Shown here piece by piece: positions 1,072 to 8,440 of a stretch of DNA of 51,994 bases. The stretch spans positions 1 through 51,994 of the forward strand of contig CAYTSP010000070.1 of the NCBI GenBank assembly GCA_964440505.1, written 5' to 3'. Origin of the DNA: an uncultured Nitrospinaceae bacterium. GTDB lineage: Bacteria > UBA8248. Positions within the stretch are counted from its first letter, which is position 1. The number at the start of each line of letters is the position of its first letter. A program made the translations under genes and the position numbers. The notes under the pieces are model-generated. The model saw nothing but the letters and a program-made list of their open reading frames with translations. It made no database searches and was not told the origin of the DNA.

Positions 1072-1761
1072 ATGAGAAAATGGAACAGACGAGAACTGCT
1101 GAAAAACTCCCTGCTCGGCCTGACCGCGCTCGGCACGGGGGCCTTCGCGCTTCGGGAAACCCTCGCCCCCACACCCGCATATGGAGAGTTGGGGGAATTC
1201 GGGAAATTCCTGATCGCGCAAGGCGAAACACCGGATGAGGCGCCGTCCAATGCGCGTAAGCCGACCGCTTCGGACTCCATGGGACCCTTCTACAAGGAAG
1301 GGGCTCCTTATCGCGGCTATTTGATGCCCAGGGATGCACAGGGCACGCCGATGCTCATCCGCGGCCGCGTCTATGGGCATGACACCCGGAAAACGCTCGA
1401 GGGCGCGACTATCGACGTATGGCAGGCGGATGACAGCGGCAGCTACCACGGCATGGACGAGAAGGAGAATTATCTCTACAGAGCGCGTATGCGCACCTCA
1501 CGGCGCGGCCTTTATCAGTTCGAAACCGTGCATCCGGGACGTTACGGCTTCGGCATCTGGGCGAGGCCGTCACACATTCATTTCTACATCCGCCATCCCG
1601 ATTACCAGCCCCTGGTGACGCAACTATATTTTCAGGGCGACCCCAGATTGGGCGACCATGAACGCGCCAGACCCTCTTTGATCATTGCGCTCAAAAAGGT
1701 TTCCTGGGGAAAAACGTATGAGTTGGGTAATTTCAATATCGTTTTGGTACGGAAATCATAA
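1072..1761 (+). CDS. Intradiol ring-cleavage dioxygenase-like protein (protocatechuate 3,4-dioxygenase beta/Dioxygenase_C fold) with twin-arginine signal peptide
   Basis: N-terminal NRRELLK followed by a hydrophobic stretch; motifs MGPFY, IDVWQAD..GSY, PGRY, RPSHIHF, LVTQLYF (Tyr/Tyr/His/His Fe ligands present). Confidence 0.85.
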   Translation: MRKWNRRELLKNSLLGLTALGTGAFALRETLAPTPAYGELGEFGKFLIAQGETPDEAPSNARKPTASDSMGPFYKEGAPYRGYLMPRDAQGTPMLIRGRVYGHDTRKTLEGATIDVWQADDSGSYHGMDEKENYLYRARMRTSRRGLYQFETVHPGRYGFGIWARPSHIHFYIRHPDYQPLVTQLYFQGDPRLGDHERARPSLIIALKKVSWGKTYELGNFNIVLVRKS

Positions 1762-1781
1762 AAACCCGAAAGGTTCGGCAC

Positions 1782-3098
1782 TCAGTCATAGAGCGCCGTT
1801 TGAAGCTGCTCACGCATTTTTTCAGGCGCCACTCCGAAGGCGCGCAGTGTGTCCTCCGCCTCCTGAATAACCCGGTCGATATCCTCATAGATTTTATACG
1901 TCTTCGTGTAGTCGGGATACTCGAAACCCATGGCTTGCCCTAGAATCGTCATGAAATTCTCGATTTCAAAAAATTCACCCTTTTCCAGACCGCATAGTTC
2001 ACGGTGACAACTGTGATAAACGGTTAGTAAAGAGTCGACCCGAGCGCGGCGCGCCGAGTCGAAAAGTTTCTCGCGCATCGCCGCTTTCGCCTCCGGAATG
2101 ACGAGCGTGGGGCACTGATAGGCATGATCCGATAGCTGTTCAATCTCCACGAACTCGAGCCCGGGAACCGCCCGGAGAATTTTCAATACGTTTTCCTCTA
2201 CGCCATCTGTCCCGCCGTGTAGATGCACGGCCACGCGCTTTTCCACTTTTTGCGTGAATTCTCCCCGCAAGGTTTCCAGATTATCCGCCAGATATTGCGT
2301 GATGTGGACAAACGGCAGGATTTCCTCCTCGCTATTTTTCGAATCACCCGCCATGGGGAGAACCGGCTTTCCGGTGTAGAGGTGTTGATATTCGGAGTAC
2401 TGCATCTGGCAAGTGGGGCAAAATGTAATGACTTTCTCAGGCGCATATGATTTGAAATACTCCAGGGATCGCGCGCCCATCGCCGCTCCTGCATCCAGAT
2501 CCCCACGCCTGATGTGGTTGATGCCGCAACAATGGCCCACGCCGCCGGCGACCTCATAGTCCAGACCAAGACGGTCGAAAACATCGATGCAGGAGAGCAG
2601 GATGTGAGGCGTCTGGAGAATGTTGCATCCAAAGTAAAACACCGCATCTGCTTTGTTTGCCTCCGAGCCCCGAACGGCGGTGAGATTCCTGAACAGCTCG
2701 GGCTCGAGCTGGAGTGCGGCCATGAAGCGAATCTTCCGGCTTAGTTCCTGAAAATACGACCTGCCGGCCTCTTGAATCTCAGACTCTTCTATTTCGATAT
2801 TCTGAAGCTTGAGCTTGGCGTAGGAGAGCATTTCACGCGGGTTGACGTCCTCCGGGCAGGCCTCGATGCAAATTCCGCTTTTTTGACAGGCTTTGGCCCA
2901 AAGCGCCCCTTCCGGCTCATGAGGACGATCGTTGATGATGTCCACAACGGATTTCGTCACCCGTTCGGGCTCCGCACCTTTGGCTTGTGAATACTCGACC
3001 ATCGGGCAGACTTCATAACATTTCCCGCAATGCGTACAGGCTTCGGTGATATGAGAGATTCTCTCTTCCATAAAACTCTGGTAGGCCGTAGTTTCCAT
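1782..3098 (-). CDS. (Fe-S)-binding protein, HdrD/GlpC-like: N-terminal 4Fe-4S dicluster plus CCG domain(s)
   Basis: CTHCGKCYEVCP, CQKSGICIEACP, YFGC...HCCG...FCPTC. Start moved to ATG 3098, which follows an AAGGAG SD. Confidence 0.85.
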   Translation of the reverse strand: METTAYQSFMEERISHITEACTHCGKCYEVCPMVEYSQAKGAEPERVTKSVVDIINDRPHEPEGALWAKACQKSGICIEACPEDVNPREMLSYAKLKLQNIEIEESEIQEAGRSYFQELSRKIRFMAALQLEPELFRNLTAVRGSEANKADAVFYFGCNILQTPHILLSCIDVFDRLGLDYEVAGGVGHCCGINHIRRGDLDAGAAMGARSLEYFKSYAPEKVITFCPTCQMQYSEYQHLYTGKPVLPMAGDSKNSEEEILPFVHITQYLADNLETLRGEFTQKVEKRVAVHLHGGTDGVEENVLKILRAVPGLEFVEIEQLSDHAYQCPTLVIPEAKAAMREKLFDSARRARVDSLLTVYHSCHRELCGLEKGEFFEIENFMTILGQAMGFEYPDYTKTYKIYEDIDRVIQEAEDTLRAFGVAPEKMREQLQTALYD

Positions 3099-3378: not shown

Positions 3379-4887
3379 ATGTCGAATGCCACAGATAAAT
3401 ACGATGTCGTCGTCGTGGGCTGCGGAAACGCTGCACTTTGCGCATCGCTTGCGGCGAGAGATCAGGGGGCGAAGGTTCTGGTGCTCGAAAAAGCGCCCGA
3501 GGCATGGCGCGGCGGCAATTCGGCTTTTTCAGGCGGTCTTTTTCGCTTCGCCTTCCATAGCATCGAGGACATCTACTCACTCGTGCCCGATCTTTCCGAC
3601 GCCGAGAAAGAAAACATCGAGATCGACCCCTATACATCGGAAAAATTCTTTGACGACCTCGCCCTGTTGACCGAATACCAGACGGACGGCGACCTCGCTT
3701 CCGTCCTCATCCACGAGTCGTTTCCGACACTGAAATGGATGCAGTCAAAGGGTTTGCGACTGATCCTGGCAAGCGGCCGACAAGCATTCAAGGTAGACGG
3801 CAAGATGCGATTCTGGGGTGGTCTGGTTCTCGAGATTGTCGGCGGCGGGCGCGGCCTCATCGATTCACTCCTTGATGCCGCAAACAATGCCGGAGTCGAG
3901 ATTCGCTACGCATCGAAGGCGATGCGCCTGCTCACGGACCCCATGGGCGGCGTAACGGGTGTCGAAGTCAAAGGTCCTGATGGGCCTTACGAAGTCGAGA
4001 CGCACGGAGTCGTTCTGGCATCTGGTGGCTTCGAGGCGAACGCCGAGATGCGCTGCCGGTACCTGGGTCCGGGCTGGGAACTCGCAAAAGTCCGCGGCAC
4101 CCCTTACAACACGGGGGACGGCATCAAGATGGCGCTCGATATCGGTGCGCAGCCATACGGGAACTGGAGCGGCTGTCACGCGGTCGCCTGGGATTTGAAC
4201 GCCCCCCCCTTCGGCGACCTCACGGTTGGAGAATCCTACCAGAAACACTCTTATCCGTTCGGCATCATCGTGAACATAGAGGGCAATCGCTTCGTGGATG
4301 AGGGTGCCGATTTCAGAAACTACACTTACGCCAAATACGGCCGGAACATCCTCCAGCAACCCCAGCGGGCCGCCTTTCAGATATTCGATCAGAAAACGGT
4401 CCATATGCTGCGCGACGAATATCGCATCCGTGAAGTCACCAAGGCCGAGGCCAGCACGCTGGAAGAACTAGCAAAACAACTCGAGATCGATGTCGATGAA
4501 TTCGTCAAAACCGTTCAGGAATACAACGCCGCCGTTCAGCCGGGCGAATACAATCCGGCCATCAAAGACGGCAAATGCACGAAGGGCATCGACCCCCCGA
4601 AATCGAACTGGGCGCTGCCCATCGACGAACCGCCCTACCTCGGCTTCGCCGTCACTACGGGAATCACTTTCACCTTCGGCGGCATCCGTGTGACGCCCAA
4701 AGCGGAAGTCATGAACACCGAAAACGAAATCATCCCCGGGTTGTTCGCTGCGGGCGAACTTGTGGGCGGCGTCTACTATTTCAACTACCCGGGAGGCGCA
4801 GGGCTGACTTTGGGCTCCGTCTACGGCAAGCTGGCGGGTACTGCCGCAGGGCAGCGCGCCGCTCAGGCGAAGACTGCATCCGCCTGA
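3379..4887 (+). CDS. tcuA: FAD-dependent tricarballylate dehydrogenase TcuA-like flavoprotein (FAD_binding_2 family)
   Basis: DVVVVGCGNAAL FAD loop, RGGNSAFSGG, LASGGFEAN, RGTPYNTGDG, RFVDEGAD...YTYAKYG, GITFTFGG, AAGELVGG..YFNYPGGAGL; GAGGAGG SD. Confidence 0.85.
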   Translation: MSNATDKYDVVVVGCGNAALCASLAARDQGAKVLVLEKAPEAWRGGNSAFSGGLFRFAFHSIEDIYSLVPDLSDAEKENIEIDPYTSEKFFDDLALLTEYQTDGDLASVLIHESFPTLKWMQSKGLRLILASGRQAFKVDGKMRFWGGLVLEIVGGGRGLIDSLLDAANNAGVEIRYASKAMRLLTDPMGGVTGVEVKGPDGPYEVETHGVVLASGGFEANAEMRCRYLGPGWELAKVRGTPYNTGDGIKMALDIGAQPYGNWSGCHAVAWDLNAPPFGDLTVGESYQKHSYPFGIIVNIEGNRFVDEGADFRNYTYAKYGRNILQQPQRAAFQIFDQKTVHMLRDEYRIREVTKAEASTLEELAKQLEIDVDEFVKTVQEYNAAVQPGEYNPAIKDGKCTKGIDPPKSNWALPIDEPPYLGFAVTTGITFTFGGIRVTPKAEVMNTENEIIPGLFAAGELVGGVYYFNYPGGAGLTLGSVYGKLAGTAAGQRAAQAKTASA

Positions 4888-4990
4888 TTCTTCCATTTCA
4901 GGGAAGACGTGGTAGTCCAATCAGGTTCAAGTGACTAGCACGCACAAACCGCAGCGGTGATGGCCTGTCTCAAGTCGTGAACAAGGCGTT

Positions 4991-5569
4991 TCATGCCGTA
5001 ACGCCGCTCAAAGAGATCGATTCGCCGTTCAGGCTCACGGTGCTTTTCAGAGGAACGGCGGCCGTCACCATTTGTTCGGCGAAGCATCCTTGCTTCGCAT
5101 TCCTGATGACCGCCAGAATTTTCTCCGCCGATTCATCGGATTCCACCTCGAAATGCGTGCGAACCTCGTTGCAGCCGGCATTCACCGTGCCCTTGAGAAC
5201 GGAGCCCCCTAAAAAGTAATCGAAATCCACGTGCACCCTGGCGTGCGTGAAGGACACTTTCATCATGTGCGCGTACCGCGCAAGCTGGGTGAGGAGTCAG
5301 AATCCGACTCCCATGGCAATGTAGCAAAGCGGTTGGGGGTAGGAATCCTCCCCGCCGATGCGGGGCGGCTCATCACAATACACCTCGAAGTGTCTGTGCG
5401 TCCCCAGCTTGAGCTGGCCTTTTCCCTCTATCGTTTCGGTGTCGGCGGACATGGTGAAAGCATAGCCCTGCTTGGGGAGTTCGGGCTTGTCAATGGCACG
5501 CTCACCGGGAATGACGCTGTCTTTACGCGGGTCGAGAGGTTCCACTTGTCTTGTCTCCTTTGGTGTCAT
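4991..5569 (-). CDS. OsmC/Ohr-family protein with in-frame UGA (codon 91, nt 5297-5299), probable selenoprotein, 192 aa
   Basis: ORFs 5297-5569 and 4991-5266 are in the same frame, joined by TGA CTC CTC ACC CAG CTT GCG CGG TAC GCG CAC. The joined product reads DEPPRIGGEDSYPQPLCYIAMGVGF-U-LLTQLARYAHMMKV...AKQGCFAEQ, which places U at the first OsmC catalytic Cys. Confidence 0.85.
5268..5282 (-). promoter_or_regulatory. Bacterial SECIS-like hairpin (apical stem-loop)
   Basis: mRNA UGCGCG-GUA-CGCGCA is a perfect 6-bp stem. The G-initiated loop starts 21 nt after the UGA, consistent with bacterial SECIS spacing. Confidence 0.7.
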
Positions 5570-5663
5570 AAGAATGGCATAAGAAAAACGCTATTATGCA
5601 CGCAGGGGCGGTGCAAGAGAACCGCCGGGCATTCATTTTCTCGTGATCAAAAGGGGCTATTTC

Positions 5664-6623
5664 GTGAACCGAATCGCCGTACCAGATGACTACCCTTCCG
5701 TTTTCATGGGCAGCGCTGCTGAAACCCGGCTACGCGAAATCGGGGATGCGGAAATCCATACCTCGAACCCGCAAACGTCCGAAGAACTGCTGAGACGCGT
5801 TTCCGGAGCCGATGGAATCATCAACATCCGGGCTTTTTGCAAATTCGACGCGGATTTTTTCTCGAATTGCTGCGATCTCAAGGTACTTTCGATCTGGGGC
5901 ACAGGGACGGACCACGTCGATTTGAAGGCAGCCGAGAATGCAGGCGTCATCGTATCGAACACGCCGGGCGTGGCCGCCGTCTCCGTCGCTGAACACACCC
6001 TGGCCCTGATGATGGCGGCGGCGCGCCAGATACCCGGAAACGATTCCGCCATGCGGGCGGGCGAGTGGCCTCGGGGACAGATGACGCAATTGAACGGAAA
6101 AACGCTCGGCCTCATCGGTCTTGGCGCCATCGGCCGCCAGACGGCCCGCATCGCCGCCGGCATCGGAATGAAGCTCATCGCCTGGACGTTTCATCCGGAC
6201 AATGATTTCGCTGCGGAAGTAGGACTTGAGTTCGTCGATTTGAACACTTTGTATGAACGGGCCGATGTCGTCTCGATACACGTACGGCAATCGGCGGACA
6301 CAATCGGCATGGTCGGTGCCGAGGCGTTCTCCCAAATGGGTCCAAACACAATTTTGGTGAACACCGCCCGTGGACCCATAGTAGATGAAGCGGCGCTCTT
6401 ATCGGCTTTGGAAGATGGCGCCCTGGCTGCAGCTGGTCTCGACGTATTCGATCAGGAGCCTTTGCCCCCGAACCATCCGATCGGAAAACTGAACAACGTG
6501 GTTCTCTCCCCGCATAATGCGGGTATCACGCCCGAGGTCACGGAAGCAGGACTTCTGATGTCGGTGGAAAACATTGCCGCCGCACTCTCGGGCAATCCGC
6601 AAAATGTGGTGCATCCATCATGA
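5664..6623 (+). CDS. D-isomer-specific 2-hydroxyacid dehydrogenase (SerA/GhrB-like, no ACT domain)
   Basis: GTGTDHVD, NTPG, VAEH, GLIGLGAIG, NTARGPIVDE, GLDVFDQEP, SPHNAG. GTG start at 5664 follows AAGGGG. Confidence 0.9.
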   Translation: MNRIAVPDDYPSVFMGSAAETRLREIGDAEIHTSNPQTSEELLRRVSGADGIINIRAFCKFDADFFSNCCDLKVLSIWGTGTDHVDLKAAENAGVIVSNTPGVAAVSVAEHTLALMMAAARQIPGNDSAMRAGEWPRGQMTQLNGKTLGLIGLGAIGRQTARIAAGIGMKLIAWTFHPDNDFAAEVGLEFVDLNTLYERADVVSIHVRQSADTIGMVGAEAFSQMGPNTILVNTARGPIVDEAALLSALEDGALAAAGLDVFDQEPLPPNHPIGKLNNVVLSPHNAGITPEVTEAGLLMSVENIAAALSGNPQNVVHPS

Positions 6624-6741: not shown

Positions 6742-7422
6742 ATGAGTCCTACAGGAAGGGCCTGCGTAGCGGAAGCCATCGGCACGTTTGCGCTGTGCTT
6801 TATCGGCGCGGGCGCCATCATCTTGAATCAGAAAACGGGCGGAGCCGTGGGCCTCATTGGCATCGCCCTGGCCCATGGGCTGATCCTCTCGGTCATGATT
6901 TCCGCGATGGGACACGTCTCGGGAGGTCATTTCAATCCGGCCGTGACTATCGGCTTTATGGTGACCAAGAAGACAGACGGCGGTACGGGAATTTCCTACA
7001 TCATCAGCCAACTCGTGGGTGGAACCGTGGCCGGTATCCTGTTGAGAATTATCTTTGCCGCCGACGTCTGGCAAAAGGTGAATCTGGGAACACCGACCCT
7101 GGCGAGTGACGTGAGCTTCGGCATGGGGATACTGATCGAAATCATCCTCACGTTCTTCCTCGTCACCGCTATCTGGGGCTCCGCCGTGGATGACAGACAC
7201 CCCGACGTAGGCGGTTTCGCGATCGGCCTCACCATTGCTGCAGATATTTTGATGGGAGGTCCACTCACGGGAGCATCCATGAATCCGGCGCGAACATTCG
7301 GCCCAGCCCTGGCCGGAGGCGGTTTCGACGGCATCAACCATCTCGTCTACTGGATAGGGCCCATCATCGGCGCCGTGGCGGCGGCCCTGGTGTACAACAA
7401 CATATTGATCAAAAAAGAATAA
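6742..7422 (+). CDS. MIP-family channel (aquaporin)
   Basis: SGGHFNPAVT and GASMNPART NPA boxes, six hydrophobic segments, YWIGPIIG; AAGGAG SD. Confidence 0.95.
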   Translation: MSPTGRACVAEAIGTFALCFIGAGAIILNQKTGGAVGLIGIALAHGLILSVMISAMGHVSGGHFNPAVTIGFMVTKKTDGGTGISYIISQLVGGTVAGILLRIIFAADVWQKVNLGTPTLASDVSFGMGILIEIILTFFLVTAIWGSAVDDRHPDVGGFAIGLTIAADILMGGPLTGASMNPARTFGPALAGGGFDGINHLVYWIGPIIGAVAAALVYNNILIKKE

Positions 7423-7477: not shown

Positions 7478-8440
7478 TTACGCGTTTTCTTTGACGATAT
7501 TCGTAGGCGCACCCCTCAAAAACGCTTCGACGTTCGCTACCGGCACGTCGCGGAACCTCGCATACGTGCCGTCTGTAATCCACGCTGAATGCGGCGTGAT
7601 GATGACGTTATCCAGAGAACGGTATATCGATTCCTTCGGCAAGGGCTCGAAAGGTTCGAAAACATCGAGGCCGGCACCGGCGATGCGCCGGTTTCTCAAG
7701 GCGTCCAGCAGCGCATCCTCATCCACAATCTGAGCGCGCGCCGTGTTGATGAAAAACGCCGTCTCTTTCATCTGCGCGAATTTCTCTCTCGTCATGAAGG
7801 GTGCTGCGCCCGCCGGTAAATGAAGATGAAGCGACACCACGTCGGACGCGAGACATTCCTCGACGGAGGCCGCTGCCGCCCCATCCGCCTGCGCGCGTTC
7901 GGGCGTCATCGAACGAGAGCATGTGATGACCCGCATACCGAAACCCAAGGCCATGCGGCAAACCAGGCGAGCTATGTGGCCGAAACCGATGAGTCCCAGA
8001 GTCTTCCCGGCAAGTTCGACCCCTAGATCCTGTGGCCAGCCGCCCTCTTTCATGGCGGGGAACATGAGCGGCACTCTTTTCGCCAGAGCGAGAATCAGCA
8101 TCATCGTGTGCTCGGCCACCGAAGAGGCGCTCGCCGCAGGCGTAATGCTCACCACGATCCCGCGTTCGCTGGCGCGATCCATGTCGATCATGCGCGGGCG
8201 CGTTCCCATCACGGAAATCATCTTGAGGTGAGGAATGTGATCCAGCAAATCGGTTGCCTTGAAGTCGGTCTGATATCTGGTCGTCAGGATGATTTCCGCG
8301 TCTTTCAGGCGCTCGCGGAGCAATTCTTCGCTTTCGGCGTTTTCGGTGTAGTAATGCACGTCGCCCAGGGCGCGCAATCGCCCAAGGGCTTCTGAATCTT
8401 CAAACAAACGGAAACAATCGTCTGGAATAACGATTTGCAT
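7478..8440 (-). CDS. D-isomer-specific 2-hydroxyacid dehydrogenase, last gene of the ABC operon
   Basis: VAEH, GKTLGLIGFGHIA, INTARAQIVDE, GLDVFE, ITPHSAW. Confidence 0.88.
   Translation of the reverse strand: MQIVIPDDCFRLFEDSEALGRLRALGDVHYYTENAESEELLRERLKDAEIILTTRYQTDFKATDLLDHIPHLKMISVMGTRPRMIDMDRASERGIVVSITPAASASSVAEHTMMLILALAKRVPLMFPAMKEGGWPQDLGVELAGKTLGLIGFGHIARLVCRMALGFGMRVITCSRSMTPERAQADGAAAASVEECLASDVVSLHLHLPAGAAPFMTREKFAQMKETAFFINTARAQIVDEDALLDALRNRRIAGAGLDVFEPFEPLPKESIYRSLDNVIITPHSAWITDGTYARFRDVPVANVEAFLRGAPTNIVKENA

What the first reader, a model, noticed from the sequence alone, without database searches (positions are those of the whole stretch)
4991..5569. Hidden selenoprotein: OsmC/Ohr-fold protein with an in-frame UGA at the catalytic cysteine
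Seen in sequence: the two separately called ORFs (90 aa and 91 aa) are in one frame, separated only by TGA plus 10 sense codons, giving a 192-aa product. The UGA follows the OsmC signature DEP..GG.D..P.P (DEPPRIGGEDSYPQPLCYIAMGVGF-U), and the second family Cys is intact (AKQGCFAEQ). The downstream half has no evident SD for independent initiation. Established knowledge: OsmC/Ohr proteins use a two-Cys redox pair, and OsmC-like proteins are a known but sparsely sampled bacterial selenoprotein family. Inference: this is a Sec/Cys oxidoreductase that standard annotation would split into two hypothetical genes. It has a ~35-aa N-terminal extension, three extra Cys (YCDE, PLCY, AGCN) and an organic-acid catabolic neighbourhood, so it may be an uncharacterised subfamily.
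Basis: partly seen in the sequence, partly recalled or inferred. Interest (0 to 1): 0.85.

Follow-up and report, generated by a model that had tools for sequence, protein, structure and literature searches.

The report
Known-family OsmC-like selenoprotein gene
The two short "genes" are really one gene for a small redox protein whose internal TGA stop codon is read as the rare amino acid selenocysteine, but this protein family was already known, so it is a correct yet ordinary catch.

Summary
On the minus strand, ORFs 5297..5569 and 4991..5266 share one frame, split by TGA (5297-5299) plus 10 sense codons.

The joined protein matches the curated NCBIfam model NF041052, "OsmC-related (seleno)protein", at 181.7 bits (cut-off 95), and the match runs across the TGA.

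- **Active-site position:** the TGA aligns with the first conserved Cys of solved OsmC-like structures, in the published UxxT motif. The second family Cys is intact.
- **Decoding machinery:** the genome has tRNA-Sec (anticodon TCA), selA, selB and selD.
- **Conservation:** the TGA is kept in 84 of 84 homologous genes in 80 public contigs, and in every listed match in 61 genomes searched (the window's own and 60 relatives). Rare homologs carry Cys instead.
- **SECIS:** a 6-bp hairpin 14 nt after the TGA shows compensatory changes, as a bacterial SECIS element should.

So this is a real selenoprotein, but of a family described since 2005, in a clade already listed as selenoprotein-rich.

- The true start is probably GTG 5545, giving 184 aa with Sec at residue 83.
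- The N-terminal segment is a family-wide feature.
- The three extra Cys are not conserved.

The biochemical function (probably a selenol/thiol peroxidase) is inferred, not shown. Interest is low to moderate.

The parts
4991..5569 (-).
4994..5545 (-). Most probable coding sequence: GTG 5545 to the last sense codon, 184 aa, Sec at residue 83, OsmC-related selenoprotein
   Evidence: NF041052 at 181.7 bits against cut-off 95. Pfam OsmC at 47.6 bits. AlphaFold model with pLDDT 95.6 and OsmC/Ohr fold matches. Start-site comparison.
5555..5560 (-). AAGGAG Shine-Dalgarno-like hexamer, 9 nt upstream of GTG 5545
   Evidence: Sequence. More distant orthologs L089-L099 show the same layout, with a GGAG-type site a few nt before a start codon that lies 0-3 codons ahead of the (E)xPLDPRK motif.
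5543..5545 (-). Probable GTG start codon
   Evidence: L082 has an in-frame TGA in the stretch between ATG and GTG, and L086 has no in-frame ATG there. The G017 ortholog (L040) also has an in-frame TGA there, and the G027 ortholog (L039) has one two codons before its GTG.
5297..5299 (-). In-frame TGA read as selenocysteine (U91 in ATG numbering, U83 in GTG numbering), first residue of the UxxT motif
   Evidence: Aligns with the first conserved Cys of 3cje, 2opl, 2onf and 9wo1. TGA in 84 of 84 homologous genes and in all listed rows. Cys in P0002, P0005 and P0006.
5268..5282 (-). SECIS-like hairpin UGCGCG-GUA-CGCGCA: 6 bp, small G/U-containing loop, beginning 14 nt after the UGA
   Evidence: Across 28 sequences, 93.5% of cells are paired and 3 of 6 pairs show compensatory changes in 18 cells. 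0 of 500 shuffles reach the observed values. RNAalifold predicts the same helix.
5084..5086 (-). TGC codon of the second, invariant family Cys (C162 in ATG numbering, C154 in GTG numbering), in AKQGCFAEQ
   Evidence: Invariant in 41 of 41 sequences. Aligns with the second Cys of 3cje and 2onf.
4991..4993 (-). Terminal stop codon, also TGA. Many orthologs end at the same place with a non-TGA stop.

Best explanation
Window 4994-5545 (minus strand) is a single gene. It encodes a 184-aa selenoprotein (192 aa if the upstream ATG is used) of the OsmC-related (seleno)protein family, NCBIfam NF041052, within the OsmC/Ohr fold.

**Decoding.** The internal UGA (5297-5299) is decoded as selenocysteine by the genome's own SelA/SelB/SelD/tRNA-Sec system. 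SelB is presumably recruited by a short hairpin (5268-5282) that starts 14 nt after the UGA.

**Active site.** Sec sits at the position of the first, peroxidatic-type Cys in the long central helix (motif U-L-L-T-Q). It is paired with the invariant second Cys (GCFAE).

**Shown here:**
- one gene rather than two;
- family membership;
- Sec-decoding capacity in the genome;
- conservation of the UGA;
- a covarying hairpin after the UGA;
- the OsmC/Ohr fold.

**Inferred from the OsmC/Ohr family (my estimate about 50-60%):** the selenolate attacks a hydroperoxide or a similar oxidant. The resulting selenenic acid is resolved by the second Cys to a selenenyl-sulfide. A thiol or lipoyl-type donor then re-reduces it.
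For: - **Frame and motifs:**
- **Family:** NF041052 at 181.7 bits against cut-off 95, covering residues 40-182 across the TGA. Pfam OsmC at 47.6 bits against 27.5.
- **Position of Sec:** U aligns with the first conserved Cys of four solved OsmC-like chains. C162 aligns with the second Cys of 3cje and 2onf.
- **Fold:** AlphaFold model with pLDDT 95.6 and pTM 0.87. Foldseek finds 64 PDB matches at E<=0.001, and every row listed is an OsmC/Ohr-type or unnamed structural-genomics entry (2onf_A E 2.2e-9).
- **Sec machinery in the same genome:**
  - tRNA-Sec at 75.9 bits, and ARAGORN calls tRNA-SeC with anticodon tca;
  - selA at 578 bits;
  - selB at 382 bits;
  - selD at 334 bits, itself containing one in-frame TGA.
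- **Conservation of the TGA:**
  - three paralogs over the cut-off in the own genome, each with exactly one TGA;
  - all rows listed are over the cut-off and have exactly one TGA, and 43 of 61 genomes are over the cut-off;
  - 84 of 84 genes in 80 public contigs have TGA at the column, down to 49% identity, in Nitrospinota-, Tectomicrobia- and Betaproteobacteria-labelled MAGs.
- **Cys forms:** P0002, P0005 and P0006 read GFCLLTQ.
- **Hairpin:** 93.5% paired, 18 doubly changed cells in 3 of 6 pairs, 0 of 500 shuffles reach this, slid controls give 9-73% paired. RNAalifold gives the same helix.
- **Independent DNA:** contigs X2 record 6 and X6 record 9 span the stretch with no change at 5297-5299.
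- **Literature:** OsmC-like selenoprotein family with the UxxT motif (passages read).
Against: - No experiment shows selenium in this protein or in any member of the family. The papers I saw only list the family.
- The hairpin is small. Single-sequence folding energy is no better than shuffles (z -0.01 for 76 nt, z -0.38 for 45 nt).
- A longer lower stem predicted for the window sequence has no covariation support: 17 of 28 and 10 of 28 sequences are unpaired at two of its pairs.
- No Rfam family matches the region.
- One of the 28 aligned sequences (G032b) does not fit the helix register as aligned.
- The hairpin lies in strongly conserved coding sequence (ARYAH), so part of its conservation is protein-level.
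- The peroxidase chemistry is inferred by homology only. The acidic residue that aligns nine residues before the Cys in 2opl is Cys/Thr/Ala/Ser and others in this family. The classical Ohr-type catalytic set may therefore not be present.
Confidence: 0.93

Rival explanations
1. The protein is a genuine selenoprotein of this family but not a hydroperoxide peroxidase. The Sec/Cys pair would serve another redox or carrier role tied to carboxylic-acid metabolism, for example as a partner of neighbouring dehydrogenases. Alternatively it would handle sulfur or selenium.
For: - Neighbours of this ortholog are TcuA (583.9 bits), a TcuB-like CCG/4Fe-4S protein, two 2-hydroxyacid dehydrogenases and a MIP channel.
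- These neighbours are kept in almost all of the 22 close orthologs (TcuA in 22 of 22). The divergent dehydrogenase and/or the MIP channel is kept in 6 of 10 more distant orthologs.
- Other family members sit beside TctC, CoA-transferase III, Iso_dh, SDR, acyl-CoA synthetase and MR/MLE genes.
- The paralog on C167 lies directly upstream of a HypE/SelD/ThiL-like AIR-synthase-type gene.
- The Glu position of other OsmC-like proteins is not conserved in this family.
Against: - The fold and the two-Cys geometry are those of OsmC/Ohr peroxidases.
- Contexts of the paralogs are heterogeneous, with an ABC ATPase and a HAD hydrolase among them.
- TctC genes are very numerous in Betaproteobacteria (recalled), so adjacency to them may be chance.
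- The neighbours are convergent or divergent, not co-oriented operon partners.
Confidence: 0.3
2. The UGA is read as another amino acid (Trp, Gly or Cys by reassignment or near-cognate read-through) rather than as Sec.
For: One database homolog, P0004, is printed with W at the column, presumably because a gene caller read TGA as Trp.
Against: - The gene itself ends in TGA and neighbouring genes use TGA as stop, so TGA is not reassigned genome-wide.
- The complete Sec machinery is present.
- The column is Cys in the non-TGA homologs, the classic Sec/Cys pair.
- A covarying hairpin follows the UGA.
Confidence: 0.02
3. The region holds two independent small genes, or a pseudogene broken by a nonsense mutation.
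For: Table-11 ORF calling gives two ORFs. The downstream piece begins with ATG ATG.
Against: - One HMM and one predicted domain span both halves.
- Neither half alone contains a complete OsmC fold.
- The TGA is conserved at 84 of 84 genes across phyla with both halves intact, which a decaying pseudogene would not show.
Confidence: 0.01
4. The TGA is an assembly or sequencing error for TGC or TGT.
For: None found.
Against: - Independent contigs from other runs and studies (X2 record 6, X6 record 9) carry no difference at 5297-5299.
- All orthologs and paralogs examined have TGA.
Confidence: 0.005

Closest known systems
NCBIfam NF041052, OsmC_like_Se, 'OsmC-related (seleno)protein'
   Same: The whole core (residues 40-182 of the 192-aa reading) matches at 181.7 bits against a cut-off of 95, with Sec at the model's Cys/Sec column. 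Paralogs and orthologs score 120-178 bits.
   Different: The conserved N-terminal PLDPRK...PGERxIDKPELP segment lies outside the 144-position model. Otherwise nothing differs, and I file this gene as a member.
'OsmC-like protein' selenoprotein family of Zhang, Fomenko and Gladyshev 2005 (PMC1088965), also listed in PMC1976440, PMC2398784, PMC9312934 and PMC13188914
   Same: OsmC fold (pfam02566 / COG1765 in those tables). Redox motif UxxT, which here reads U-L-L-T. A bacterial SECIS with a small G-containing apical loop (passages read).
   Different: I could not fetch the papers' example sequences, so identity of the subfamily rests on the motif and on NF041052. Those surveys counted many more Cys than Sec homologs (5 Sec against 161 Cys in the ocean survey). 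The clade sampled here is almost entirely Sec.
Ohr / OsmC organic-hydroperoxide peroxidases (for example 1n2f, 1zb9, 6ebc, 1nye, 1vla)
   Same: Same fold (Foldseek E 1e-7 to 5e-6, TM to target 0.55-0.71). Two conserved redox residues sit at the equivalent helix positions.
   Different: - Only 11-21% sequence identity.
- Sec replaces the first Cys.
- About 30-40 extra N-terminal residues.
- The acidic residue upstream of the first Cys is not conserved.
- Activity is untested.
3cje_A, OsmC-like protein (closest solved structure by sequence)
   Same: E 8.4e-8 over residues 59-175. It shares DE...GG...P.PL, GC..TQ and AKxGCF.EQ.
   Different: It has Cys, not Sec. No function is named for it in the entry title.
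Escherichia coli fdhF-type bacterial SECIS (recalled, not tested here)
   Same: A hairpin just downstream of the UGA within the coding sequence, with G/U in a small apical loop.
   Different: Here only a 6-bp helix with a 3-nt (or 5-nt) loop has support. No bulged U and no extended lower stem are supported.

Membership tests
NCBIfam NF041052 OsmC-related (seleno)protein | Whole-protein HMM score over the curated cut-off (95 bits) | tested here: met
   181.7 bits, residues 40-182 on model positions 2-144. 173.6 bits in the six-frame genome search.
NCBIfam NF041052 OsmC-related (seleno)protein | Sec or Cys at the first redox position, with the second Cys present | tested here: met
   U in GFULLTQ and C in GCFAE. 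Both columns are invariant in 41 of 41 sequences, with U read as C.
Bacterial selenoprotein (general criteria) | In-frame UGA aligned with Cys in homologs, with conserved flanks on both sides | tested here: met
   Cys in P0002, P0005 and P0006 and in PDB homologs. TGA in 84 of 84 genes.
Bacterial selenoprotein (general criteria) | SECIS stem-loop shortly downstream of the UGA, with a small G-containing apical loop | tested here: met
   6-bp helix at +15 to +29 after the UGA, loop GUA closed by G-C, with covariation in 3 of 6 pairs. Caveat: the folding energy is not distinguishable from shuffles. bSECISearch was not available.
Bacterial selenoprotein (general criteria) | Genome encodes selA, selB, selC (tRNA-Sec) and selD | tested here: met
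   All four are over their curated cut-offs. The tRNA-SeC anticodon is tca.
Bacterial selenoprotein (general criteria) | Selenium incorporation demonstrated (75Se labelling or mass spectrometry) | not testable with these tools
   Needs an experiment. RNA-library contigs from one study span the gene, but they do not prove transcription, let alone translation.
OsmC/Ohr superfamily (Pfam PF02566) | Pfam score over the gathering cut-off, and the OsmC fold | tested here: met
   47.6 bits against 27.5. Model pLDDT 95.6, and every Foldseek row listed is an OsmC/Ohr-type or unnamed structural-genomics entry.
OsmC/Ohr superfamily (Pfam PF02566) | Catalytic Arg and Glu that activate the peroxidatic Cys in Ohr/OsmC (feature recalled from the literature) | tested here: inconclusive
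   The Glu of 2opl, nine residues before the Cys, aligns with a variable column here (C/T/A/S/D/N/G). I made no alignment to a biochemically characterised Ohr.
OsmC/Ohr superfamily (Pfam PF02566) | Thiol-dependent hydroperoxide reductase activity | not testable with these tools
   Needs an enzyme assay.
Published 'OsmC-like protein' selenoprotein family (2005) | UxxT redox motif | tested here: met
   U-L-L-T in the window. T is invariant in 41 of 41 sequences. The motif is as tabulated in PMC1088965, PMC2398784 and PMC13188914.

The most novel reading that the evidence does not exclude
The NF041052 clade is an almost obligately Sec-using, multi-copy family. The window's genome has three copies, and one relative (G035) has at least ten among the listed matches. 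In this reading its members are not general peroxide scavengers. They would be dedicated selenol redox partners of carboxylic-acid-oxidising enzymes (TcuA/TcuB, 2-hydroxyacid dehydrogenases, tartrate/isocitrate-type dehydrogenases, CoA-transferases) in sponge-associated Nitrospinota-like bacteria and in Betaproteobacteria. The conserved N-terminal PGERxIDKPELP segment would act as the docking element.
Probability: 0.12. Interest if true: 0.55.

Novelty: new member of a known kind. Interest (0 to 1): 0.25.

Why it matters
- **Annotation:** plain gene callers cut this gene in two. Public databases do contain such fragments, and even a chimera of two neighbouring copies (P0003). The correct call is one selenoprotein, probably starting at GTG 5545.
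- **Biology:** the gene adds a well-supported member, with a covariation-supported SECIS, to a family that has been listed for twenty years but, in the papers I could search, never characterised biochemically.
- **Possible follow-up:** relatives of this genome carry many Sec-containing copies and almost no Cys forms. That makes the clade a reasonable model for asking why some redox families insist on selenium.
- **Limits:** it does not open a new category of system.

Tried and rejected
- **Rfam:** a scan of 5150-5400 at E<=10 gave only three chance-level hits (mir-666, a frameshift site, Xist). No SECIS family matched.
- **Folding energy:** single-sequence folding of the region after the UGA is no better than shuffles, so energy alone cannot support the SECIS.
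- **Lower stem:** an extended lower stem from the 45-nt fold was tested on the alignment and rejected, because it shows no covariation and many broken cells.
- **Context clustering:** the first attempt was confounded by antisense shadow ORFs of the conserved gene. I redid it with greedy non-overlapping ORFs.
- **Other split ORFs:** a scan of the whole window for other same-frame ORF pairs split by one TGA gave 71 candidates. By eye, none besides this gene looked like a real gene, and none was followed up.
- **RNA-library contigs:** contigs of X15 and X16 (one study, about 91% identical relatives) cover the gene across the TGA. The tool warns that DNA can be present in such libraries. Not all of their differences were listed, so I make no claim of expression or of their codon at the Sec site.
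- **Not run:** Complex prediction, the search of protein representatives, the protein-atlas search, and the 'shorter' and 'longer' length searches of the search for homologous proteins. No claim depends on them.
- **Supplements:** supplementary tables of the selenoproteome papers were not consulted. They may list this very clade.

Full report
**Observation.** On the minus strand the window holds two table-11 ORFs, 5297..5569 (90 aa) and 4991..5266 (91 aa).
- They share one frame and are separated by TGA (5297-5299) and ten sense codons.
- Reading TGA as U gives 192 residues, with U91 in ...PLCYIAMGVGFULLTQLARYAH... and a second Cys in ...AKQGCFAEQ....
- The gene's own terminator is also TGA (4991-4993).

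**What the protein is.**
- *Family models.* Pfam gives OsmC (PF02566, 47.6 bits against 27.5). NCBIfam gives NF041052, "OsmC-related (seleno)protein", at 181.7 bits against a cut-off of 95. That match covers residues 40-182 and so runs straight across the TGA.
- *Solved structures by sequence.* A phmmer search of solved structures aligns U91 with the first conserved Cys of 3cje, 2opl, 2onf and 9wo1. It aligns Cys162 with the second Cys of 3cje and 2onf.
- *Predicted structure.* An AlphaFold model built on a 41-sequence alignment is confident (pLDDT 95.6, pTM 0.87).
  - Sec lies in the long central helix.
  - The second Cys lies at the junction of the two C-terminal helices.
- *Fold search.* Foldseek finds 64 PDB matches at E<=0.001. 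Every row listed is an OsmC/Ohr-type or unnamed structural-genomics entry (2onf_A 2.2e-9, 1lql, Ohr from several species, E. coli OsmC).

**Can the organism read UGA as Sec?** The genome is 92% complete in 354 contigs. It has:
- tRNA-Sec at 75.9 bits against 47, which ARAGORN calls tRNA-SeC with anticodon tca;
- selA at 578 bits;
- selB at 382 bits, on the same contig as selA;
- selD at 334 bits, itself with one in-frame TGA.

**Is the TGA conserved?**
- *Own genome.* Three genes are over the NF041052 cut-off (C70, which is this one, C229 and C167). Each has exactly one in-frame TGA.
- *Own genome plus 60 relatives (61 genomes).* 48 have a match at E<=0.001 and 43 are over the cut-off. All 36 relatives of the same family have a match. 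Every row listed is over the cut-off and carries exactly one TGA. A further 161 weaker matches were not listed.
- *Public contigs.* A scan of species-representative genomes kept 80 loci at 95-49% identity. Their records are labelled Nitrospinota, Nitrospinaceae, Tectomicrobia, Betaproteobacteria/Burkholderiales/Nitrosomonadales, and a few others. In these loci 84 of 84 family genes have TGA at the column. The pattern I used accepted any residue there.
- *Cys forms.* They exist but are rare. The 5.8-billion-protein collection gave 7 hits in the near-length range.
  - P0002, P0005 and P0006 read GFCLLTQ.
  - P0004 reads W, most likely TGA translated as Trp.
  - P0007 and P0008 are C-terminal halves.
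  - P0003, named "hypothetical protein" by its source, is the C-terminal half of one copy fused to the N-terminal half of the next tandem copy.

**SECIS.**
- Fourteen nucleotides after the UGA lies UGCGCG-GUA-CGCGCA (5268-5282).
- I aligned 28 non-identical family members from UGA to +51: the window, two own paralogs and 25 from relatives. These were chosen from 39 family sites extracted, dropping the near-identical close orthologs.
- *Pairing.* 93.5% of cells pair.
- *Compensatory changes.* Three of six pairs show them, in 18 cells: UA to GC, GC to AU, CG to AU. They often arise through an amino-acid change on one arm and a synonymous change on the other.
  - GCG..GCG (Ala..Ala) against GGG..GCC (Gly..Ala).
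  - AAG..GCU UCC (Lys..Ala-Ser).
- *Controls.* 0 of 500 shuffles reach the observed pairing or covariation. Slid controls give 9-73% paired.
- RNAalifold independently predicts the same helix.
- The loop G and U are at least 90% conserved or invariant. [quoted passage not shown]
- *Points against.*
  - The folding energy is not better than shuffles.
  - A longer lower stem is not supported.
  - One sequence (G032b) keeps a hairpin only in a register shifted by one base, by my reading.
  - Rfam has no matching family.

**Start codon.**
- The ATG at 5569 has no ribosome-binding site.
- The in-frame GTG at 5545 follows AAGGAG (5555-5560) by 9 nt.
- More distant orthologs (L089-L099) all show a GGAG-type site, a short spacer, and then ATG, GTG or TTG 0-3 codons before the conserved xPLDPRK motif.
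- L082 has an in-frame TGA inside the "MTPKETRQ" stretch, and L086 has no in-frame ATG.
- Relatives G017 and G027 show the same thing.
- One ortholog (L088) lacks the GTG and would need its ATG.
- I therefore take GTG 5545 as the likely start, giving 184 aa with Sec83 and Cys154.

**Independent DNA.**
- Contigs from other public runs span 4900-5700. X2 record 6 has 1 differing letter, at 4949. X6 record 9 has 15 differing letters, and the 14 substitutions reported for the run are all listed.
- Neither contig differs at 5297-5299, so an assembly error is excluded.
- The runs holding half or more of the sampled words are all labelled sponge metagenome. There are five such runs from two studies, one of which may be the source.

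- *N-terminal segment.*
  - It is not special to this gene. PGERxIDKPELPxxG is conserved across most of the 41 aligned sequences, although it lies outside the NCBIfam model.
  - A minority (L048, L049, L051, L053, L060, L061) have different N-termini.
- *Extra Cys.* Invariant columns in GTG numbering are D58, E59, G65, P72, U83, L85, T86, Q87, A92, G114, S115, A150, C154 and G174.
  - The three "extra" Cys (C57, C74, C125) are not invariant.
  - C57 is the majority residue at its column. The other two columns vary freely.
- *Neighbourhood.* It is indeed organic-acid metabolism:
  - TcuA tricarballylate dehydrogenase at 3379-4887 (583.9 bits against 369);
  - a TcuB-like CCG/4Fe-4S protein at 1788-3098 on the minus strand;
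  - 2-hydroxyacid dehydrogenases at 5643-6623 and 7478-8440;
  - a MIP channel at 6742-7422.
- *How far that neighbourhood extends.*
  - The block is kept in almost all of the 22 close orthologs (TcuA in 22 of 22).
  - It is only partly kept in 10 more distant orthologs, and not beside the paralogs.
  - Other family members sit beside TctC, CoA-transferase III, Iso_dh, SDR, acyl-CoA synthetase and MR/MLE genes.
  - The genome's own paralogs sit beside an ABC ATPase, a HAD hydrolase and a HypE/SelD/ThiL-like protein.
  - So there is a hint of a link to carboxylic-acid metabolism, but no consistent operon.

**Mechanism.**
- *Shown:* one gene, the OsmC/Ohr fold, Sec and Cys at the two family redox positions, and the decoding apparatus with its signal.
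- *Inferred from the OsmC/Ohr family (established knowledge, recalled):* the selenolate reduces a hydroperoxide. The selenenic acid is trapped by Cys154 as a selenenyl-sulfide. A thiol or lipoyl donor then regenerates it.
- I put this chemistry at roughly 50-60%.
  - No member has been assayed in the papers I could find. Searches found only survey tables, in 8 and 4 papers.
  - The acidic residue seen upstream of the Cys in 2opl is not conserved here.

**Comparison with what is known.**
- OsmC-like selenoproteins with a UxxT motif were described from the Sargasso Sea in 2005 (PMC1088965).
- They were counted again in worm symbionts (PMC1976440) and in an ocean survey (PMC2398784).
- They are tabulated in reviews of 2022 and 2026.
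- A 2026 database paper lists Nitrospinota-labelled MAGs of GTDB group UBA8248 among the ten most selenoprotein-rich bacteria. One of them appears among my loci L092, L105 and L142.
- For all these papers I read only the search listings and the passages returned by 'find'. Supplements were closed.

**Verdict.** The gene is a new member of a known kind. It is a correct and well-supported selenoprotein call, of practical value for annotation, and not a new system.

Noticed in passing
L028 (G000:C329), minus-strand ORF within 1462..2292: A fourth OsmC-superfamily gene in the same genome has an in-frame TGA at the first-Cys position (...AGHAGUGLYTLLG..., second Cys in ...ENCPIHNT...). It scores only 51.7-60.9 bits on NF041052, below the cut-off. 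It is therefore a likely selenoprotein of a different OsmC subfamily.
   Followed up: partly
L019 (G000:C69:7351-8313): The genome's selD has one in-frame TGA inside the match, so SelD is itself a selenoprotein here.
   Followed up: no
L020 1252-2265 (-), directly downstream of the C167 paralog (about 2580-2981): An AIR-synthase-type protein lies next to a Sec-containing OsmC-related paralog. It resembles HypE (101 bits), SelD (97 bits) and ThiL (82 bits) about equally, and all three scores are below their cut-offs.
   Followed up: partly
window 1788-3098 (-) and 3379-4887 (+): A divergent TcuB-like (CCG + 4Fe-4S) and TcuA (FAD tricarballylate dehydrogenase, 583.9 bits) pair lies next to the selenoprotein gene. 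The pair is conserved in the close orthologs.
   Followed up: partly
window 6742-7422 (+): A MIP/aquaporin-family channel (190.9 bits) stays near the ortholog even in more distant relatives (L089, L092, L097, L098). Some aquaporins pass H2O2 (recalled), so a link to a peroxidase-like protein is conceivable but untested.
   Followed up: no
L030, L092, L096, L098 (two copies each); L117 (three copies); L128 (two copies): Family genes often occur as tandem or clustered copies, each with its own TGA and hairpin. One relative (G035) has at least ten copies over the cut-off among the listed rows.
   Followed up: partly
P0003, P0004, P0007, P0008: Public protein collections hold mis-called forms of this family:
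- C-terminal halves (P0007, P0008);
- a chimera of two neighbouring copies, named 'hypothetical protein' (P0003);
- one entry with W at the Sec column (P0004).
   Followed up: partly
window 5258-5305: In contigs from other runs, the only pieces of paralogous or foreign contigs that align at the nucleotide level are 5258-5305 (UGA plus hairpin) and about 5472-5509 (the PGERxIDKPELP segment). These are therefore the most DNA-conserved parts of the family (tables 5, 7 and 8).
   Followed up: no
L082 and L040, 5' leader of the orthologs: Two orthologs carry TGA inside the 'MTPKETRQ' stretch upstream of the GTG. This is what first suggested that the stretch is untranslated leader holding the ribosome-binding site.
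   Followed up: yes
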